NCBI GenBank assembly: GCA_958296135.2
Contig: CATQHZ020000001.1
Location: 2,080,001-2,144,000 of the forward strand
From: an uncultured Poribacteria bacterium
Lineage (GTDB): Bacteria > Poribacteria > WGA-4E > WGA-3G
Direction of reading: 5' to 3'
Length of the DNA: 64,000 bases
The notes under the pieces are model-generated. The model was not told the DNA's origin. It did not search any database and saw only the letters and a list, made by a program, of their open reading frames with translations. Below are positions 38,476-43,552 of this stretch, in pieces (position 1 is the stretch's first letter; every line of letters begins with the position of its first letter). The position numbers and the translations under genes are program-made.

Positions 38476-39696
38476 ATGGCACTACGAAGTCGAATCTCGT
38501 CACGGTTCCTCGTCAATGAACTTGCCACCGCCATCTCGGAGGATTGGCGGACCTCGCGCAAGTTCATGCAATACCAACTGGCGAAAGAGAGTTTTAACCT
38601 GCGCCACCCGTTCGGCGCAAAGCACGGCAGAGGCGATGCATTGCAACTCGTCAGCCTCCGCATTACGGACATGTGTAACCTCCGCTGCCACTCCTGTGGG
38701 CAATGGGGTGACAACGGTTACCTCCTGGGGCAATCGCTCAAAGACCTGAAAGCGCGCGAAGTCCCCGTTGAAACCTATAAAAACCTCGTGGACCAGATCG
38801 TCGACCTCGGCTGGTCCCCCGTCTGGTATATCTGGGGCGGCGAACCGATGCTTTACCCCGGCCTCATCGAACTGATGCACTACATCAAGGATAAGGGGAT
38901 GCCGATTTCCCTCGTGAGTAACGCCACCAACATCGCTAAACGCGCGGACGATATTTTGGAAACCTGCAAAATTGTCTACCTCAGCGTTGACGGCCCAAAC
39001 GAGGAAATCCACAACACGCAGCGCCCCGGCGTTTCCGCGAAATATGACAACTTCAAAGATGTCAAAGCCGCCCTTGAAACGCTGAACGCGGCGAAGGAAC
39101 GCCAGCAACTCGCCTTCCCTTATATCATCCCGCTTAGCTGCGTAACGATGTATAACATTGATGTCGTGGTGGATCTCTACAAATTCACCAGTCAATACGC
39201 CGACGCACAGATTTTTTACCTGACATGGTGGATCGACTCGCAATCCGCGCAAGAACACACGGAGGACTTTGAGAACCGGTTCGGATTCAAACCACAGACG
39301 CACTACGGATGGATAGGCACCTGGAAAGATTTCGACCACGGCTTAATCCTGGATAAGTTTGCGGAAATGGAGAGCCTCTCCGAAAAGCAGAAACGGTGCC
39401 CGCCGGTGATGATGCCGAGGCTCAACACGCGCGGCGAAATCCAACGTTACTACACAGACCATCAGCAAACCTTCGGGTATAACCAGTGCGTCAGCATCTA
39501 TATGACGATGGAGATCGATAGTAACGGCGACGTGAGCCTCTGCCGCGATTACCACGACTACATCATCGGCAATATCAAAACCGATGCAGTCGCCGATATG
39601 TGGAATAACCAGAAAGCCATGAAGTTCCGCCAGTCCATCAGCGAAGACGGCCCCATGCCAGTCTGCCGCCGTTGCTGCGGGTTGATGGGATTTTAA
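38476..39696 (+). CDS. Radical SAM protein with C-terminal SPASM/twitch domain
   Basis: CNLRCHSC, WGGEP, SVDG, C-x-IDSNGDVSLC...GNI...CRRCC. Confidence 0.9.
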   Translation: MALRSRISSRFLVNELATAISEDWRTSRKFMQYQLAKESFNLRHPFGAKHGRGDALQLVSLRITDMCNLRCHSCGQWGDNGYLLGQSLKDLKAREVPVETYKNLVDQIVDLGWSPVWYIWGGEPMLYPGLIELMHYIKDKGMPISLVSNATNIAKRADDILETCKIVYLSVDGPNEEIHNTQRPGVSAKYDNFKDVKAALETLNAAKERQQLAFPYIIPLSCVTMYNIDVVVDLYKFTSQYADAQIFYLTWWIDSQSAQEHTEDFENRFGFKPQTHYGWIGTWKDFDHGLILDKFAEMESLSEKQKRCPPVMMPRLNTRGEIQRYYTDHQQTFGYNQCVSIYMTMEIDSNGDVSLCRDYHDYIIGNIKTDAVADMWNNQKAMKFRQSISEDGPMPVCRRCCGLMGF

Positions 39697-39787
39697 GCCC
39701 ATCATTCACCGTAGGGCTCGGTGCAGTGGCGAGAACCATAAGAGAATCTAGCAGAACCTACCCTAATCTAGCAGTGTGCATTTTGAC

Positions 39788-39816
39788 TTGCATTTCGCTT
39801 GGACTTATGGTATAAT
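39788..39816 (+). promoter_or_regulatory. Strong sigma70 promoter for tnpB
   Basis: TTGCAT-17 bp-TATAAT with TGn. Confidence 0.85.
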
Positions 39817-39819
39817 ATA

Positions 39820-39919
39820 GTTACCGTTGGGAGGTGAGACCTACTAAGCGCGGCATCCCGCCGTGTCTCTCACCTCCACCTTACCTTAGTAGGAAGGAAA
39901 AACAACGGCGAACGGTGAC
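39820..39919 (+). ncRNA. Structured pseudoknotted 5' leader of tnpB
   Basis: Stems 39830-39/39868-77 (10 bp), 39840-48/39885-93 (9 bp, crossing), 39849-54/39860-65, closing 39820-28/39911-19. Confidence 0.65.
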
Positions 39920-39923
39920 GCCT

Positions 39924-41168
39924 ATGGCATTGAAAACGCATTTAATGGCGTTGGACCCGAATAATAAGCAGGCGACGCTGCTTGCAAAGCACTGCGGCTA
40001 TGCCCGCGTGGCACGTAACCATGCGCTCTCGGAATTCAAGGCGGCACTCGATCGCGATGAATTCCTATCCGATATGGACTTGCGCAAAAGATTCAACGCC
40101 GTGAAAGATGAACGCTACCCGTGGTGTCGCGAGCTCAGTCAAAATGCATCGAAGAATGGGATTTGCACGCTCGGTGATGCAGTGAAACGCTGGGTCTCTA
40201 AACAGAACCGCTTCCCGCGCTATAAGCACCGATCTGGTAGGAGTTCCTACCAAGCTGACAATGGCGCAGGCACGGTGAAGGTGGAGAAAAAGCGTGTCAA
40301 CCTCCCGAAGATTGGCTGGGTTCGCCTGCGCGAGAAGTTGCGTTGGCGTGGCGAGATTCGGCGGTGTGTCGTCTCAAAACGTGCAGGCAGGTGGTTTCTA
40401 TCGGTTCTCGTGAAGGTGGTTTCCGACAGTGCGCCACGTGTGCGTTCTGAGGCGGGTCCTATGCGGGTAGTTGGTGTTGATGTAGGTATCAAAACCCTAG
40501 CCGTGACATCCGATGGTGTTGAGTTTGAAAACCCGAAGGCACTCTACCGCTATCTACGGAAGTTGCGGCGTGCGCAGCGTCAGCTCTCTCGTTCGGTTTA
40601 CCGAAGCAGAAACTGGTATCGGAAGCAGTTCCGCGTACAGAAGATTCACTATCGTATCTGCTGTCTGCGTGAGGATGCACATCATAAGGCAAGCACGGCG
40701 ATTGTGAAGGCGGCTGACGTTCTCGGCATCGAGAGTCTTCGTGTGGCGGGCTTGTTGAAAAACCGCCGTCTTGCAAAGGCGTTGAGCGATGCGTCATTGA
40801 GCGGTTTCTTGACGATGCTTCGGTATAAGGCAGAGGCACGTGGTGTTGAGATTATCGAAGCACCGTCGAACTTCCCATCATCGAAGACGTGCAGTGCTTG
40901 CGGGAATAAAAAGAAAAAGTTGTCCCTCTCGGAGCGGACATATCACTGCGAGGCATGTGGCGTGGTCATCGACCGCGACTTGAATGCAGCGTATAACTTA
41001 AGAACCCTCGCCGCTAGCTTGACGGAGAGGCAAAACGGCTGCGGAGCGACTATAAGCCCTCAGAGTAGGCACACCTCGTGTGTCTCGGAGGCACGCCGCG
41101 TTGAAACAGCAACTACGACAGATAAGAGGACAGGTCAGATTCGGATAGATTTGTCCAGACTATCATAA
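39924..41168 (+). CDS. tnpB: RNA-guided endonuclease TnpB (IS607-associated type)
   Basis: LDPNNKQATLLAKHCG.AR; RuvC triad GVDVG, IESL, DRDLNAA intact; Zn ribbon CSAC..CEAC. Confidence 0.93.
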   Translation: MALKTHLMALDPNNKQATLLAKHCGYARVARNHALSEFKAALDRDEFLSDMDLRKRFNAVKDERYPWCRELSQNASKNGICTLGDAVKRWVSKQNRFPRYKHRSGRSSYQADNGAGTVKVEKKRVNLPKIGWVRLREKLRWRGEIRRCVVSKRAGRWFLSVLVKVVSDSAPRVRSEAGPMRVVGVDVGIKTLAVTSDGVEFENPKALYRYLRKLRRAQRQLSRSVYRSRNWYRKQFRVQKIHYRICCLREDAHHKASTAIVKAADVLGIESLRVAGLLKNRRLAKALSDASLSGFLTMLRYKAEARGVEIIEAPSNFPSSKTCSACGNKKKKLSLSERTYHCEACGVVIDRDLNAAYNLRTLAASLTERQNGCGATISPQSRHTSCVSEARRVETATTTDKRTGQIRIDLSRLS

Positions 41169-41182
41169 GTTCTAGGGAGCGG
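41005..41182 (+). ncRNA. Predicted TnpB omegaRNA scaffold overlapping the tnpB 3' end
   Basis: Lies at the right end; stems covary with 42495-42650. Confidence 0.75.
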
Positions 41183-41224
41183 CGAGATATCCATATCCGC
41201 CTATCTAATCAGAAGGAAGAATTA

Positions 41225-42088
41225 ATGAAAATTGGATTACGTATTCCCGGCACAGCCCGTCAATTGCCGTTCGCCGATTTCTGTCGGTGGTGCGCCGATA
41301 ACGGGTTTGAAGCCGTTGACATTGGAGAAACCACGCCCGAAATTGTCAAAACCGCGCGAGATGCCGGGCTCGCCATCGGCACCGCAGATTTGCCGGGAGT
41401 GAGAGAGCTCCTCAGTCCCAAAAAGTCAAAACAGAAAGCAGGAGCTTCCGCTGCGAAAGCCGCTATCCAAGCCGCCGCAGACAACGACGTGCGCATCATG
41501 TTCTGCGTCTTTGTCCCGGAGGATGCCAGCCTCGGCCGCGCCAAAAACTTCGAGATTTGGAAGCAGACTCTCCCGCCGATCGCCGAGTTCGCCGCGGAGA
41601 ACGGTGTCACTATCGCCGTGGAGGGATGGCCGGGCCCTGCGCCTGCCTATCCGGCCCTCGGCTGCACACCGGAGATGTGGCGCGCGATGTTCGCCGAATG
41701 CGATTCCCCAGGGCTGGGACTCAACTACGATCCCTCGCACCTCGTCCGCATCGGGATTGACTACCTGCGCGCCCTGCACGAATTCGCGCCCTACGTCAAA
41801 CACGTCCACGGCAAGGACACCGTCTTTGACGAAGAAGCACTCTATCTGCACGGCAATCTCGGACCGAGTTTCGGCAACGCCCGCGGCTTCGGCGAAGACT
41901 GGTGGCGGTACACGATTCCCGGTGATGGCATTGTGGATTGGCTGAAAGTCGTGCAACGCTTGGAAGACGAAGGTTTTGACGGCATCGTCAGCGTTGAACT
42001 TGAAGATTATCGCTATTGGCGCACGTGGGAGTCAGAGTCTGATGGACTCCGCCGTTCCCGCGAATTCCTCGCGCAGTATGTGCGATAA
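41225..42088 (+). CDS. Sugar phosphate isomerase/epimerase (xylose-isomerase-like TIM barrel)
   Basis: IAVEG, NYDPSHL, HVHGKD, PGDG.VDW, SVELE. Confidence 0.9.
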   Translation: MKIGLRIPGTARQLPFADFCRWCADNGFEAVDIGETTPEIVKTARDAGLAIGTADLPGVRELLSPKKSKQKAGASAAKAAIQAAADNDVRIMFCVFVPEDASLGRAKNFEIWKQTLPPIAEFAAENGVTIAVEGWPGPAPAYPALGCTPEMWRAMFAECDSPGLGLNYDPSHLVRIGIDYLRALHEFAPYVKHVHGKDTVFDEEALYLHGNLGPSFGNARGFGEDWWRYTIPGDGIVDWLKVVQRLEDEGFDGIVSVELEDYRYWRTWESESDGLRRSREFLAQYVR

Positions 42089-42105
42089 GCCGCATTTTCA
42101 TCAAA

Positions 42106-42167
42106 CCGGTAGGCGCGGTTTGCAACCGCGCCCCCATGCTAGCGCGCTTACAAAGCGCGCCTACCGG
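42106..42167. repeat. Inverted doublet of REP family 1
   Basis: CCGGTAGGCGCGGTTTGCAACCGCGCC ... GCGCGCTTACAAAGCGCGCCTACCGG. Confidence 0.85.
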
Positions 42168-42279
42168 AATTACCGATTTAAACCACACTACCAAGGAGGA
42201 GAGTGCTAGAGCCCGAAAATCCGAGTAAATCGATTGAATTCTCGGTAAGTCTCGTTAATTCGTAACATATCTGATTTAA

Positions 42280-42487
42280 GTAGTTTTATCTCTCAGATGA
42301 GAGGATGGCGAACGGAGCGTGAAGAACGTTTCCTGCTGCACGATACCAAGAGGCATGTGTAATGTCCTAACCCCCCGTGTGAAGCGGATTAAGAGTCGGC
42401 GGTGCGCAGGCATCACTGACGGTGGAGGGAGCTGTAAGTCCGACGCGATTCCCGAAAGGATTGTCTCGCTGCAGTATCTAAGACTAC
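42280..42487 (+). ncRNA. Unidentified ~210-nt multi-stem RNA
   Basis: Closing stem GTAGTTTTA/TAAGACTAC, GATAC/GTATC, GAGGC/GTCTC and several hairpins with GCAG, GAAA and GTGAA loops. Confidence 0.5.
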
Positions 42488-42494
42488 AAAACCA

Positions 42495-42650
42495 ACGTCG
42501 CGGCTGGTTTGACCGAGACGTAAAACGCCTGTGGAGCTCGCGTAAGACCTCGTAGTATTCGCATTTCGGTGCGTTTCGGAGGCGGTAAGTGATGAAGCAG
42601 GAACTTAGAAGTCTCGACTTATCTCGATATGTTGAGACTTCGGGGAACAG
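42495..42650 (+). ncRNA. Orphan TnpB omegaRNA scaffold
   Basis: ACGCCTGTGGAG..GTAAGACC..TGAAGCAGGAA pattern; aligns with 41005-41114. Confidence 0.75.
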
Positions 42651-42658
42651 AAAACACC

Positions 42659-43552
42659 ATGAACGGAGAATGTCTTGCGCATCTACTCACAGAAGAAGAA
42701 CGGACCCGTTTTGAAGAGCAGGGATACCTCTACGTGCCGAATGCCCTCTCCCCAGATGTGGTTGAGCAGTTAACGCACGCCGTGGATACCCTGCACAACA
42801 AGGCACTCGCCAACGGCAGAGCCACGCCCGGCAGTCCCTGGGGCTGGTCAGATTTTTTAAGAGAAGACGACGCGCTCCTAAATCTCGTCGACTGGCCGCG
42901 GACGTTGCCCAAGGTCTGGGGCATTTTGGGGTGGAATATCTATCTCTACCACGCGCACATGCACGTCAAACCGCCCGCGCCACCCGATGCGAAAGAAGGG
43001 GAGGGCTGGCTGGAGTGGCATCAAGACAGCGGCCGCGTCAACGTTGAACTGGAAACCAACCCGCGCCCACGCTTGTCGCTGAAGGTGGCATATTTCCTCA
43101 CGGATGTCTCTGAACCGGGGCGCGGCAATTTTTATATTCGTCCCGGCAGTCACCTCGCGGATATGGCGGTGCCAGAGGACGAAATCAGCCGCGACCCGCG
43201 CGAGCAGACCGCGGACGATGTCCCTGACGATGCGATGCCGGTCTGTGTGGAGCCGGGGACCGCCGTGCTGTTCGACAGACGGCTCTGGCATTCGCGCAGT
43301 CCGAACCATTCGCAGCTGACGCGGAAGGCACTCTTCTACGGCTATGGGTATCGGTGGATCCGTCAGAAAGACGAGATGACGGTGGAACCCCTTTATGAAC
43401 GGTGCGATCCGATTCGTCGGCAGCTGCTCGGTGCCGCTGTGCGGAACAACGGCCGTTATGTTCCTTCGGAAGAGGATGTGCCGCTGCGCGGATGGCTCGT
43501 TGAGCAATTCGGCGAGAAACCGGCGTATGCGATGGGGCCGCGGCATGCTTAG
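42659..43552 (+). CDS. Phytanoyl-CoA dioxygenase (PhyH) family Fe(II)/2OG oxygenase
   Basis: FEEQGYL, WHQD (HxD), LWH, RKAL. Confidence 0.9.
   Translation: MNGECLAHLLTEEERTRFEEQGYLYVPNALSPDVVEQLTHAVDTLHNKALANGRATPGSPWGWSDFLREDDALLNLVDWPRTLPKVWGILGWNIYLYHAHMHVKPPAPPDAKEGEGWLEWHQDSGRVNVELETNPRPRLSLKVAYFLTDVSEPGRGNFYIRPGSHLADMAVPEDEISRDPREQTADDVPDDAMPVCVEPGTAVLFDRRLWHSRSPNHSQLTRKALFYGYGYRWIRQKDEMTVEPLYERCDPIRRQLLGAAVRNNGRYVPSEEDVPLRGWLVEQFGEKPAYAMGPRHA

What the first reader, a model, noticed from the sequence alone, without database searches (positions are those of the whole stretch)
42204..42650. Protein-free IS607/TnpB derivative in which an unknown ~210-nt structured RNA occupies the place of tnpB
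Seen: a 447-bp segment has IS607-like junctions (AG|TG...GGAACAG, compared with AG|TG...GAGCGG for the neighbouring tnpB element). Its 3' part is homologous to that element's omegaRNA. The part where tnpA/tnpB would lie shows no recognisable TnpB remnant. It is instead a closed multi-stem domain: GTAGTTTTA(42280-88)/TAAGACTAC(42479-87) stacked on GATAC(42342-46)/GTATC(42474-78), then GAGGC/GTCTC. It also holds hairpins TCTCA/TGAGA, GGAGCGT/ACGTTTCC, GTCGGCGGTGC-GCAG-GCATCACTGAC and a GAAA-capped stem, GTGTAA/GTGAA loops, and a possible CTGT/GCAG pseudoknot. Known: IStrons are IS605/IS607 elements that fuse a group I ribozyme to an omegaRNA. Inference: this may be a different RNA-only cargo (ribozyme, riboswitch or RNP scaffold) fused to a guide RNA and serviced in trans by TnpA/TnpB. 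It is my best candidate for an undescribed system.
Basis: partly seen in the sequence, partly recalled or inferred. Interest (0 to 1): 0.88.

Follow-up and report, generated by a model that had tools for sequence, protein, structure and literature searches.

The report
Gene-less transposon carrying an unknown folded RNA
A 452-base mobile element with no protein gene sits between a gene's ribosome-binding site and its start codon, and it joins a conserved folded RNA of unknown family to a transposon guide RNA, an arrangement so far described only for elements that carry self-splicing introns.

Summary
The element is 42199-42650 (452 bp), not 42204-42650.

- **Insertion:** orthologous loci in a same-genus and a same-family genome read AAGGAG|AAAACACCATG uninterrupted. 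The element is therefore a precise, duplication-free insertion between the AGGAG ribosome-binding site and the ATG of a PhyH-like gene. AGGAG is also the published target-adjacent motif (TAM) of IS607 TnpB.
- **Ends:** they match two tnpA(serine recombinase)+tnpB IS607 copies and eight tnpB-only copies in the same genome.
- **3' part:** about 160 nt are homologous to the guide-RNA (omegaRNA/reRNA) region of those tnpB elements.
- **Folded domain:** 42280-42487 is an eight-helix RNA supported by compensatory changes (12 of 50 pairs).
- **Copies:** the domain has 9 copies here and 22 in one related genome, all in protein-free elements.
- **Family:** it matches no Rfam family, including group I introns. 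It shows no coding remnant.
- **Distribution:** it was not found in the other 59 of 61 relatives or 149 of 151 phylum genomes searched.

Its function is not shown. My best guess (about 0.4) is an accessory module of the guide RNA transcript. A new ribozyme (an IStron analogue) is not excluded (about 0.15). It is a new variant of a known kind.

The parts
42193..42198 (+). AAGGAG: ribosome-binding site of the downstream gene and target-adjacent motif (TAM), flanking the left end
   Evidence: It is retained in the empty sites of G002 and G004, 8 nt before the ATG. All win-type copies have it before the left end. The published TAM of IS607 TnpB is 5'-AGGAG (PMC11061315, passages read).
42199..42650 (+). 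Whole non-autonomous IS607-type element (452 bp, no ORF conserved among copies, no target duplication)
   Evidence: Precise absence in the orthologous loci. Contigs of two other runs bridge the site. Seven copies of this type are in the genome.
42199..42279 (+). Left end (presumed TnpA-recognised). Homologous to the left ends of the two tnpA+tnpB elements and of eight tnpB-only elements
   Evidence: Alignments (GAGTGCTAGAGCCCGAAAATCCGAG against GAGTGCTAGACCCCGAAAATCCGAG and CGTTCCTAGCCCCCGAAAATCGAG).
42280..42487 (+). Structured RNA domain, closed by helix S1 (42280-88 / 42479-87)
   Evidence: Covariance model hits: 9 here, 22 in G004. Pair counts are and coordinates. G-U cells outnumber A-C cells 93 to 13 of 900, so the + strand is the one that folds.
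42289..42302 (+). Hairpin H1 (TCTC/GAGA)
   Evidence: One pair switches C-G to G-C between lineages.
42314..42333 (+). Hairpin H2 (GGAGCGT/ACGTTTCC)
   Evidence: 100% paired but almost invariant. Six of 7 pairs never vary.
42342..42478 (+). Helix S3 (42342-46 / 42474-78), which closes a five-way junction
   Evidence: Three of 5 pairs have changes on both sides.
42375..42387 (+). Hairpin H3 (CCGT/GCGG), preceded by an invariant C-run
   Evidence: Invariant. Most G004 copies (14 of the 18 rows of alignment A3) carry a 37-40 nt hairpin insert in its loop.
42395..42420 (+). Long hairpin H4
   Evidence: Four of 10 pairs have changes on both sides. The loop sequence is not conserved.
42424..42444 (+). 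Invariant GGTGGAGG stretch and small hairpin H5 with a ..GTAAG loop
   Evidence: One pair has changes on both sides.
42445..42469 (+). Helix H6 (GCGA.../...TCGC) with a lineage-specific GAAA-capped tip
   Evidence: The C-G to U-A switch is seen in 12 against 6 sequences. Five of 7 win-type copies carry an 88-260 nt hairpin insert exactly in the GAAA loop.
42490..42650 (+). omegaRNA/reRNA-like part and right end. 42490-42523 is the remnant of the tnpB 3' end (TAA at 42521-23). 42528-42603 is a weak RAGATH-18 match
   Evidence: nhmmer hits to tnpB 3' ends. Alignment. RAGATH-18 scores 22.3 bits, E 0.2, below the 44.9 cut-off.
42651..42670 (+). Predicted guide/target: the first 20 nt after the right end, including the ATG at 42659
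   Evidence: Inference from the published TnpB mechanism, in which the guide is the flank 3' of the right end (PMC11061315 and 10.1101/2023.11.20.567912, passages read). Not tested.
42659..43552 (+). Downstream PhyH-family gene whose 5' leader is interrupted
   Evidence: Pfam PF05721, E 6.9e-18. It is 90% identical over 902 nt to the G002 orthologue.

Best explanation
**What it is (about 0.9).** A non-autonomous IS607-family transposon, 42199-42650.

**Shown.**
- It is a precise insertion without target duplication, directly after AGGAG and 8 nt before the start codon of a PhyH-like gene.
- Its two ends are those of a family that also has two tnpA(serine recombinase)+tnpB members and eight tnpB-only members in this genome.
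- Its 3' 160 nt are homologous to the guide-RNA region of the tnpB-only members.

**Inferred.**
- TnpA moves it in trans.
- It has no promoter-like site of its own, so it is transcribed as part of the host gene's leader.
- TnpB made elsewhere could load its omegaRNA. The guide would be the first roughly 20 nt of the flank, and the TAM would be the gene's own AGGAG.

**The 208-nt folded domain (42280-42487).**
- It is a conserved RNA on the same strand and, I infer, on the same transcript.
- I think it most likely (about 0.4) works as an accessory module of the guide RNA.
- In this reading a compact 5' fold insulates, stabilises or helps mature and load the omegaRNA. That RNA is cut out of a host messenger, without the tnpB mRNA context and with ribosomes loading at the displaced ribosome-binding site just upstream.
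- This would let a gene-less element compete for TnpB.
- This last step is inference only.
For: - **Insertion:** empty sites in two related genomes, and bridging contigs in two other runs.
- **Ends:** shared with TnpA(serine)+TnpB and TnpB-only elements. Pfam confirms Resolvase+MerR-HTH and OrfB_IS605/TNB.
- **Guide-RNA homology:**
- **TAM:** AGGAG matches the published TAM of IS607 TnpB (review).
- **Promoter:** no sigma-70-like site on the + strand in 41900-42900.
- **Structure:** 94.7% of 900 cells paired against 32-49% when partners are slid. 12 of 50 pairs change on both sides against 0-2 when slid.
- **Strand:** G-U 93 against A-C 13 of 900 cells.
- **Inserts:** large inserts in other copies sit only in hairpin loops.
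- **Short elements:** every left-end-to-right-end pair under 800 bp found in this genome (7 of 7 caught by the motif search) carries the domain. None lacks it.
- **G004:** all 22 copies are 421-645 bp protein-free elements.
- **Core unit:** the same domain plus omegaRNA core occurs with two different sets of ends. The RNA core, not the ends, is therefore the conserved unit.
Against: - No RNA data exist for this organism, so neither transcription nor processing is shown.
- Seventeen or more tnpB-bearing elements in the same genome have no such domain, so TnpB systems do not need it.
- Three G004 copies share a deletion of H3-H4 and lie at three loci. An intact domain is therefore not required for transposition.
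- The domain was found in only 2 of 61 relatives and 2 of 151 phylum genomes.
- The second element type has an omegaRNA core resembling one tnpB subfamily and a right end resembling another. Its fitness as a guide is therefore uncertain.
- The RAGATH-18 match is below threshold (22.3 against 44.9 bits). It is absent at E<=1 in four parent loci.
- The sequences form about three clades, and the alignment was fitted to the model, so the covariation counts are inflated to an unknown degree.
Confidence: 0.45

Rival explanations
1. The domain is a ribozyme of a class other than group I. It either splices the element out of the leader, rejoining AGGAG to the start region (an IStron analogue), or it cuts itself to set the 5' end of the guide RNA.
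For: - The layout (structured RNA at the 5' side, omegaRNA at the 3' end, last base G) parallels IStrons (passages).
- The element lies in sense inside a transcribed leader between the ribosome-binding site and the ATG.
- It has a multi-helix junction with long invariant unpaired stretches.
- ORF-less IStron variants are known (BcISt1 'no ORF').
Against: - There is no match to RF00028, or to any ribozyme family, at E<=10.
- The nested topology shows no P3/P7-type pseudoknot. The scan for further covarying pairings gave only alternatives that overlap known helices.
- The 5' flank ends in G, not the U usual at group I 5' splice sites. That rule is recalled, not tested here.
- tnpB-bearing relatives sit at the same kind of site without the domain.
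- The right end itself carries an SD-like GGGGAA/AGGAA a few bases from the flank. Splicing is therefore not obviously needed for translation.
- Most G004 copies are intergenic.
Confidence: 0.15
2. The domain acts on the host gene. It would be a cis-regulatory or ligand-sensing leader element, or a fold that restores or tunes translation after the ribosome-binding site has been moved 452 nt away.
For: - 13 of 17 right ends of this family lie 4-12 nt before the start codon of an ORF of at least 101 aa.
- The domain holds several invariant SD-like (GGAG, GGAGG) and anti-SD-like (TTTCCT, C-run) stretches.
- It is of riboswitch-like size with a five-way junction.
Against: - The same domain occurs in 22 G004 elements that insert after ..GG. 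Many of these are not next to a start codon.
- It lies 170-370 nt from the start codon.
- There is no Rfam riboswitch match.
- The downstream genes are unrelated, so a common ligand logic is lacking.
Confidence: 0.12
3. The domain has no present function. It is a captured piece of unknown origin that hitch-hikes in one successful deletion derivative and looks conserved because the copies are young.
For: - It is narrowly distributed (2 genomes; none).
- Win-type copies are 90-99% identical.
- A deletion variant has spread to three loci.
- Folding energy is only modestly better than shuffles.
Against: - Compensatory changes separate the three lineages, which are about 75-80% identical.
- Inserts are confined to loops.
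- The domain was retained when the ends were exchanged.
- No protein-free element without it was found.
Confidence: 0.15
4. The conserved pairing reflects a DNA-level role, such as transposase or host-factor binding sites, or a recombination enhancer.
For: It lies next to the left end. The left and right ends of this family are partly inverted repeats (CCCGAA/TTCGGG).
Against: - There is a strong excess of G-U over A-C in the helices (93 against 13), which points to RNA of the + strand.
- Published work found that about 40 bp of the left end and 60 bp of the right end suffice for IS607-type excision (passage).
- tnpA- and tnpB-bearing relatives lack the domain.
Confidence: 0.05

Closest known systems
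IStrons (CdISt1, BcISt1, CboIStron: a group I intron fused to IS605/IS607 with an omegaRNA)
   Same: A structured RNA at the 5' side and the omegaRNA/right end at the 3' side of one IS607-type element. It lies in sense inside transcribed host sequence. ORF-less variants exist.
   Different: - The RNA here is not a group I intron by RF00028, nor by topology.
- It replaces the protein genes instead of preceding them.
- No tnpA- or tnpB-bearing member carries it.
- Splicing is not shown.
PATE-like protein-free IS200/IS605 derivatives that encode omegaRNAs used in trans
   Same: It has no protein gene, transposon ends shared with autonomous relatives, and an omegaRNA that would need TnpB in trans (passage).
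   Different: - IS607 (serine recombinase) ends, not Y1/IS605 palindromic ends.
- An additional 208-nt conserved folded domain makes up nearly half of the element.
IS607 TnpB with RAGATH-18-derived reRNA (e.g. ISFba1; PMC11061315)
   Same: The flank is 5'-AGGAG, the published TAM. The 3' part has the CCUGUGGAG...GAUGAAGCAGGAA signature aligned to RAGATH-18. In the parent elements the guide RNA lies mostly after the tnpB stop.
   Different: - There is no tnpB in the element.
- The Rfam score is below the family cut-off.
- The extra 5' domain is not part of the published 187-nt scaffold.
MITEs / miniature non-autonomous insertion sequences
   Same: It is short, multi-copy and protein-free, and it depends on a transposase in trans.
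   Different: The internal sequence is under structural (RNA) constraint and is kept across two different sets of ends.

Membership tests
IS607-family transposon (non-autonomous member) | Ends shared with an element that encodes a serine-recombinase TnpA (MerR-type HTH + resolvase domain) | tested here: met
   Two 1.85-kb elements have a similar left end and the ...GGAACAG right end. Their first ORF hits PF00239 (E 6e-14) plus MerR/HTH; their second hits OrfB_IS605/TNB.
IS607-family transposon (non-autonomous member) | Insertion without target-site duplication, leaving the donor site scarless | tested here: met
   The empty sites read AAGGAG|AAAACACC. The occupied site reads AAGGAG[element]AAAACACC.
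IS607-family transposon (non-autonomous member) | Mobilisation by TnpA in trans | not testable with these tools
   Only indirect evidence: 7 copies at different loci and presence/absence polymorphism.
TnpB omegaRNA / RAGATH-18-derived reRNA | Match to Rfam RF03064 at or above its gathering score | tested here: not met
   22.3 bits against 44.9, E 0.2 in a 1-kb search. There was no hit at E<=1 in four parent loci, one G004 copy and one d-type copy.
TnpB omegaRNA / RAGATH-18-derived reRNA | Homology to the 3' end/right end of tnpB-bearing elements, ending at the transposon border | tested here: met
   nhmmer E 3.7e-24 to 9.9e-21 to four tnpB elements with the same right end, and 3.3e-7 to the neighbouring one. 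Alignment.
TnpB omegaRNA / RAGATH-18-derived reRNA | Cognate TAM next to the left end (5'-AGGAG or GAGGG for IS607 TnpB) | tested here: met
   AAGGAG lies before the left end in the six copies with an intact left end and in the empty sites. The second type follows ..AGGG/..GG. The TAM is from PMC11061315.
TnpB omegaRNA / RAGATH-18-derived reRNA | Binding to TnpB and guiding DNA cleavage | not testable with these tools
   No experiment or RNA data.
IStron / group I intron | Match to the group I intron covariance model (RF00028) | tested here: not met
   No hit at E<=10 in 41900-42900. The only hit in the whole genome is an unrelated 11.6-bit match elsewhere. No hit in a G004 copy.
IStron / group I intron | Core topology with a P3/P7 pseudoknot, and U at the 5' splice site | tested here: not met
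   The supported helices are fully nested. The scan for extra covarying pairings found none independent of them. The 5' flank ends in G. The topology rule is recalled knowledge.
IStron / group I intron | Self-splicing | not testable with these tools
   No RNA holder was listed for this locus.
Any other Rfam family (ribozymes, riboswitches, group II, HEARO, etc.) | Covariance-model match | tested here: not met
   There were 0 matches at gathering score in the 64-kb window. In the permissive searches only weak matches to unrelated families appeared.
Decayed coding sequence | Translated similarity to TnpB/TnpA or another protein of the genome; a frame kept among copies | tested here: not met
   tblastx of the element against the genome gave 36 hits in the 5' 300 nt outside the known copies. 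None was to tnpB and none scored above 30.4 bits, apart from left-end matches. The 78-aa ORF 42319-42555 has no Pfam hit and is broken by the loop inserts and 1-nt indels of other copies.

The most novel reading that the evidence does not exclude
The 208-nt domain is a new class of functional RNA recruited by IS607 elements. It would be a ribozyme that is not a group I intron, and it would either remove the element from the host leader or self-process the guide RNA. That would make this a second, independent kind of 'IStron', in which RNA has fully replaced the element's protein genes.
Probability: 0.15. Interest if true: 0.9.

Novelty: new variant of a known kind. Interest (0 to 1): 0.66.

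Why it matters
Protein-free transposon derivatives that keep a guide RNA are known, and so are IS607/IS605 elements fused to group I introns. Here the conserved unit of a gene-less element is a guide RNA joined to a folded RNA of no known family, and that unit is kept through an exchange of transposon ends.

If the domain helps a parasitic guide RNA capture TnpB, it shows RNA-level competition among transposons. It would also offer a natural stabilising 5' module for TnpB guide RNAs. If it is catalytic, it is a new ribozyme class with a ready biological rationale.

The locus also shows that an AGGAG TAM places these elements exactly between ribosome-binding sites and start codons. My two searches did not find this consequence stated in print.

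Tried and rejected
- **Rfam:** nothing at gathering score on the window. Permissive searches on 41900-42900, 39600-41400, six related loci and a G004 copy gave no credible family.
- **Group I intron model over the whole genome:** one unrelated 11.6-bit hit.
- **First pattern scan of genome contigs:** 39 loci, 0 of 39 confirmed by the model. In hindsight the pattern was too narrow, because it would not have matched the G004 copies. This scan therefore says little.
- **Two metagenome-contig scans:** 0 loci and 72 loci. All 24 model matches in the 72 loci were the 20-nt motif alone or a 15-bit match.
- **Viral contigs:** 1 locus, not homologous.
- **Plasmids:** no match.
- **RNA evidence:** no RNA holder listed, so expression, ends and splicing could not be examined.
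- **Extra or pseudoknot pairings:** only alternatives that reuse strands of supported helices (GGYGA with TCRCT; TTTCC with GGAGG), and no independent support. A possible 4-bp pairing of the H5 loop with the variable junction covaries between G004 and the second type but fails in the window type. I rejected it as unproven.
the GAGGC/GTCTC stem and the CTGT/GCAG pseudoknot are rejected.
- **Orthologous empty sites for the G004 copies by tblastx:** synteny was found for several, but it was too rearranged to add.
- **Papers:** supplements were not seen. The TAM tables and IStron covariance models in them might bear on the comparison.

Full report
**What is at the site.**

The surroundings are:
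- a xylose-isomerase-like TIM-barrel gene ending at 42088;
- a 64-nt palindromic repeat at 42105-42168;
- the element;
- a PhyH-family gene whose likely start is the ATG at 42659.

**Borders and mobility.**

BLAST and nhmmer against the window's own genome found seven copies of the same element type, two divergent copies, and about twenty matches to the 3' part alone. In the copy alignment the shared sequence starts at AAGGAGGAGAGTGCTAG and ends at GGGGAACAG. The flanks are unrelated.

The orthologous locus settles the borders:
- a same-genus genome (G002) reads ...AAGGAG|AAAACACCATGAACGG;
- a same-family genome (G004) reads ...AAGGAG|AATTTACCATGAACGG;
- the window reads AAGGAG[42199...42650]AAAACACCATGAACGG.

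The element is therefore 452 bp. It was inserted without target duplication, 8 nt before the start codon. The AGGAG on its left is the gene's ribosome-binding site.

There is independent support from two runs labelled sponge metagenome. Single contigs about 91-94% identical to the flanks cover 41702-42134 and 42649-43100 with only 71 nt between them. A second contig covers 41700-42151 and 42649-43100 with 56 nt between (records 16 and 9).

Its left junction for the tnpB element is about 58 nt off. Eight members of that family share GGG|CTCGGTGCAGTGGCGAGAAC and end ...GGGAGCGG|, which gives about 39717-41182.

**Which transposon family.**

The genome holds about 33 tnpB loci.
- Eight of them share both the right end (...TTTCAGGGAACAG|) and the left end (AGGAG|GACGTTCCTAGCCCCCGAAAATCGAG) with the element. 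One was checked and encodes an intact 360-aa TnpB.
- Two further 1.85-kb elements have a still closer left end (AAGGAG|TTGAGTGCTAGACCCCGAAAATCCGAG) and the ...AAAGGAACAG| right end. They encode a 208-aa MerR-HTH + resolvase protein followed by a TnpB. That gene pair is the IS607 hallmark.

The element is thus the protein-free member of an IS607 family with autonomous (2), tnpB-only (8) and gene-less (7) forms. The true parent is this subfamily, not the neighbouring tnpB element, which is only about 51% identical in protein.

Published work on IS607 TnpBs reports a TAM of 5'-AGGAG in 18 of 22 strains and GAGGG in 4 of 22. It also reports a 187-nt reRNA scaffold built around RAGATH-18 (PMC11061315, passages read; repeated in a 2026 review). 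The flank here fits that TAM exactly.

**The 3' part.**

42490-42650 aligns with the guide-RNA region of the parent elements (E 3.7e-24 to 9.9e-21; alignment) and more weakly with the neighbour's (E 3.3e-7). 42490-42523 corresponds to the last codons and the TAA of the parent tnpB.

Rfam gives only a sub-threshold RAGATH-18 match at 42528-42603 (22.3 bits against 44.9), and none in the parent loci at E<=1. I therefore call it omegaRNA-like by homology and context, not by Rfam membership.

**The folded domain.**

A covariance model built from four insert-free copies found 9 copies in this genome and 22 in G004, a genome of another genus of the same family. It found none in the other 59 of 61 relatives.

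A second model found the same two genomes among 151 drawn from the phylum.

All 22 G004 copies lie in 421-645-bp elements. These have the left end GG|GTAAGTTGCAGTGGCGTAAAAT and the right end ...ACAGAGCGG|, which are the ends of the neighbouring-tnpB family. The two divergent copies in this genome have those ends too. The same RNA core therefore travels with two different sets of ends.

On an 18-sequence alignment I counted my eight-helix structure. I had dropped the copies with large inserts and the three deletion copies.
- 94.7% of 900 cells are paired, against 32.0-48.8% with partners slid by 1-3 columns.
- 12 of 50 pairs change on both sides, against 0-2 when slid.
- No shuffle of 500 reached the observed value for four of the five measures.
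- The count of further pair types was not unusual (333 of 500 shuffles reached it).

Two caveats apply.

The helices in window coordinates are:
- S1: 42280-88 / 42479-87
- H1: 42289-92 / 42299-302
- H2: 42314-20 / 42326-33
- S3: 42342-46 / 42474-78
- H3: 42375-78 / 42384-87
- H4: 42395-405 / 42410-20
- H5: 42424-29 / 42439-44
- H6: 42445-51 / 42463-69

Further points on the domain:
- G-U pairs far outnumber A-C (93 against 13 cells), so the RNA of the + strand, the strand of the omegaRNA, is what folds.
- In five of the seven copies of the window type, 88-260-nt hairpin inserts sit exactly in the GAAA loop (42453/4). In six of the seven, including those five, an insert also sits in an omegaRNA hairpin loop (42567/8).
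- G004 copies carry inserts in the H3 and H4 loops. The helices themselves are spared.
- Folding energy alone is not persuasive (z -0.53 for the element, -1.87 for the domain).

**What the domain is not.**
- No Rfam family matches.
- The group I model does not match, and the helices are fully nested.
- tblastx against the genome shows no coding remnant.
- The only ORF (78 aa) has no Pfam hit and is not kept in other copies.
- No promoter-like or terminator-like site lies in the element on the + strand.
- It has no other relative in the genome.

**What it most likely does.**

*Shown:*
- It is a mobile, gene-less IS607 element.
- It lies in a host leader in sense orientation.
- It is made of a left end, a conserved folded RNA, an omegaRNA homologue and a right end.

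*Inferred:* TnpA and TnpB act on it in trans, and the guide is the start of the PhyH-like gene.

Three observations bear on the domain's function:
- All short elements found in this genome carry it (7 of 7 under 800 bp in the motif search; none without it).
- It is kept across the exchange of ends.
- It is constrained as RNA.

That argues for a role in the element's own RNA biology. My preferred reading (about 0.4) is a 5' accessory module that stabilises, insulates or matures the guide RNA. That RNA must be produced from a host messenger, with a live ribosome-binding site just upstream and without the tnpB mRNA context.

The rivals are a non-group-I ribozyme (0.15), a cis-regulator of the host gene (0.12), a functionless passenger (0.15) and a DNA-level role (0.05).

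Points against my reading:
- tnpB-bearing relatives do without the domain.
- A deletion variant has spread to three loci in G004.
- No RNA data exist.

**Comparison with what is known, and novelty.**
- Protein-free IS200/605 derivatives that encode omegaRNAs for use in trans are described.
- IStrons fuse group I introns to IS605/IS607 and have ORF-less variants.
- This element works like the former and looks like the latter. Its RNA is neither a group I intron nor any curated family, and it stands in place of the genes.

I rate it a new variant of a known kind. The domain itself may be a new RNA class, but it is narrowly distributed and of unknown function.

On literature coverage, I searched the paper library with four term sets. 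I read passages only, not whole papers or supplements. I found no description of such a domain.

Noticed in passing
G000 C1, 17 right ends of the ...GGAACAG family (window copy ends at 42650): 13 of 17 elements of this IS607 family (gene-less, tnpB-only and autonomous alike) end 4-12 nt before the start codon of an ORF of at least 101 aa. One ends 30 nt before a start codon, and three have none by this criterion. With an AGGAG TAM these elements land between ribosome-binding site and start codon, in sense. The right end itself carries an SD-like GGGGAA/AGGAA. I did not find this stated in PMC11061315 (no 'Shine', 'RBS' or 'start codon') or in a library search.
   Followed up: partly
other copies of the element (e.g. 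G000 C1:825349-825439, 825058-825234) and left ends of three tnpB elements (C1:203xxx, 3122xxx, 4732xxx): A hairpin-rich insert of about 90 nt, bounded by CCGATTTT(T)G(A)CG ... CG(T)CAAAA(A)TCGG, sits in RNA hairpin loops of the element and in left ends of tnpB elements. There are 18 paired copies in the genome, 15 of them 80-99 nt long. It looks like a small nested mobile repeat. Its mover is unknown.
   Followed up: partly
window 42105-42168: A 64-nt near-perfect palindrome (CCGGTAGGCGCG...CGCGCCTACCGG). Its core GGTAGGCGCG occurs 201 and 234 times on the two strands of the main contig. This stretch has very high summed contig depth in all four runs laid, so it is a REP-like repeat family. 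Rfam's weak 'MIR7486' hits here (34.5 and 31.6 bits, both strands) are just the palindrome.
   Followed up: partly
window 39717-41182: The neighbouring tnpB element has a left end with two AATCTAGCAG repeats and a TGGTATAAT extended -10-like box before tnpB. Its 444-aa ORF reads through the whole omegaRNA region to within 14 nt of the right end. The ORF of the other subfamily instead stops about 150 nt earlier.
   Followed up: partly
G000 C1:2911235-2911675 and 3280210-3280650 (minus strand); G004 copies L071-L100: The second element type is chimeric. Its ends are those of the ...GAGCGG tnpB family, but the central omegaRNA scaffold (CCTGTGGAG...GAAGCAGGAA) resembles the ...GGAACAG family more than its own-end family. 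This suggests recombination within the guide-RNA region.
   Followed up: no
window 42203-42265: A 20-codon frame (GTG ... TAA) starts 4 nt after the AAGGAG and ends 15 nt before the folded domain. Ribosomes loading at the displaced ribosome-binding site might translate it. The autonomous relatives have a similar GTG. Its significance is unknown.
   Followed up: no
G000 contig C2 (143,886 bp): This contig has 36.8% G+C against 54.4% for the main 5.0-Mb contig. It may be a plasmid, a phage or contamination of the assembly.
   Followed up: no
G004 loci L097, L098, L099: Three copies at different loci share one deletion that removes the 3' half of H3 and all of H4. A damaged domain can evidently still be transposed.
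   Followed up: no
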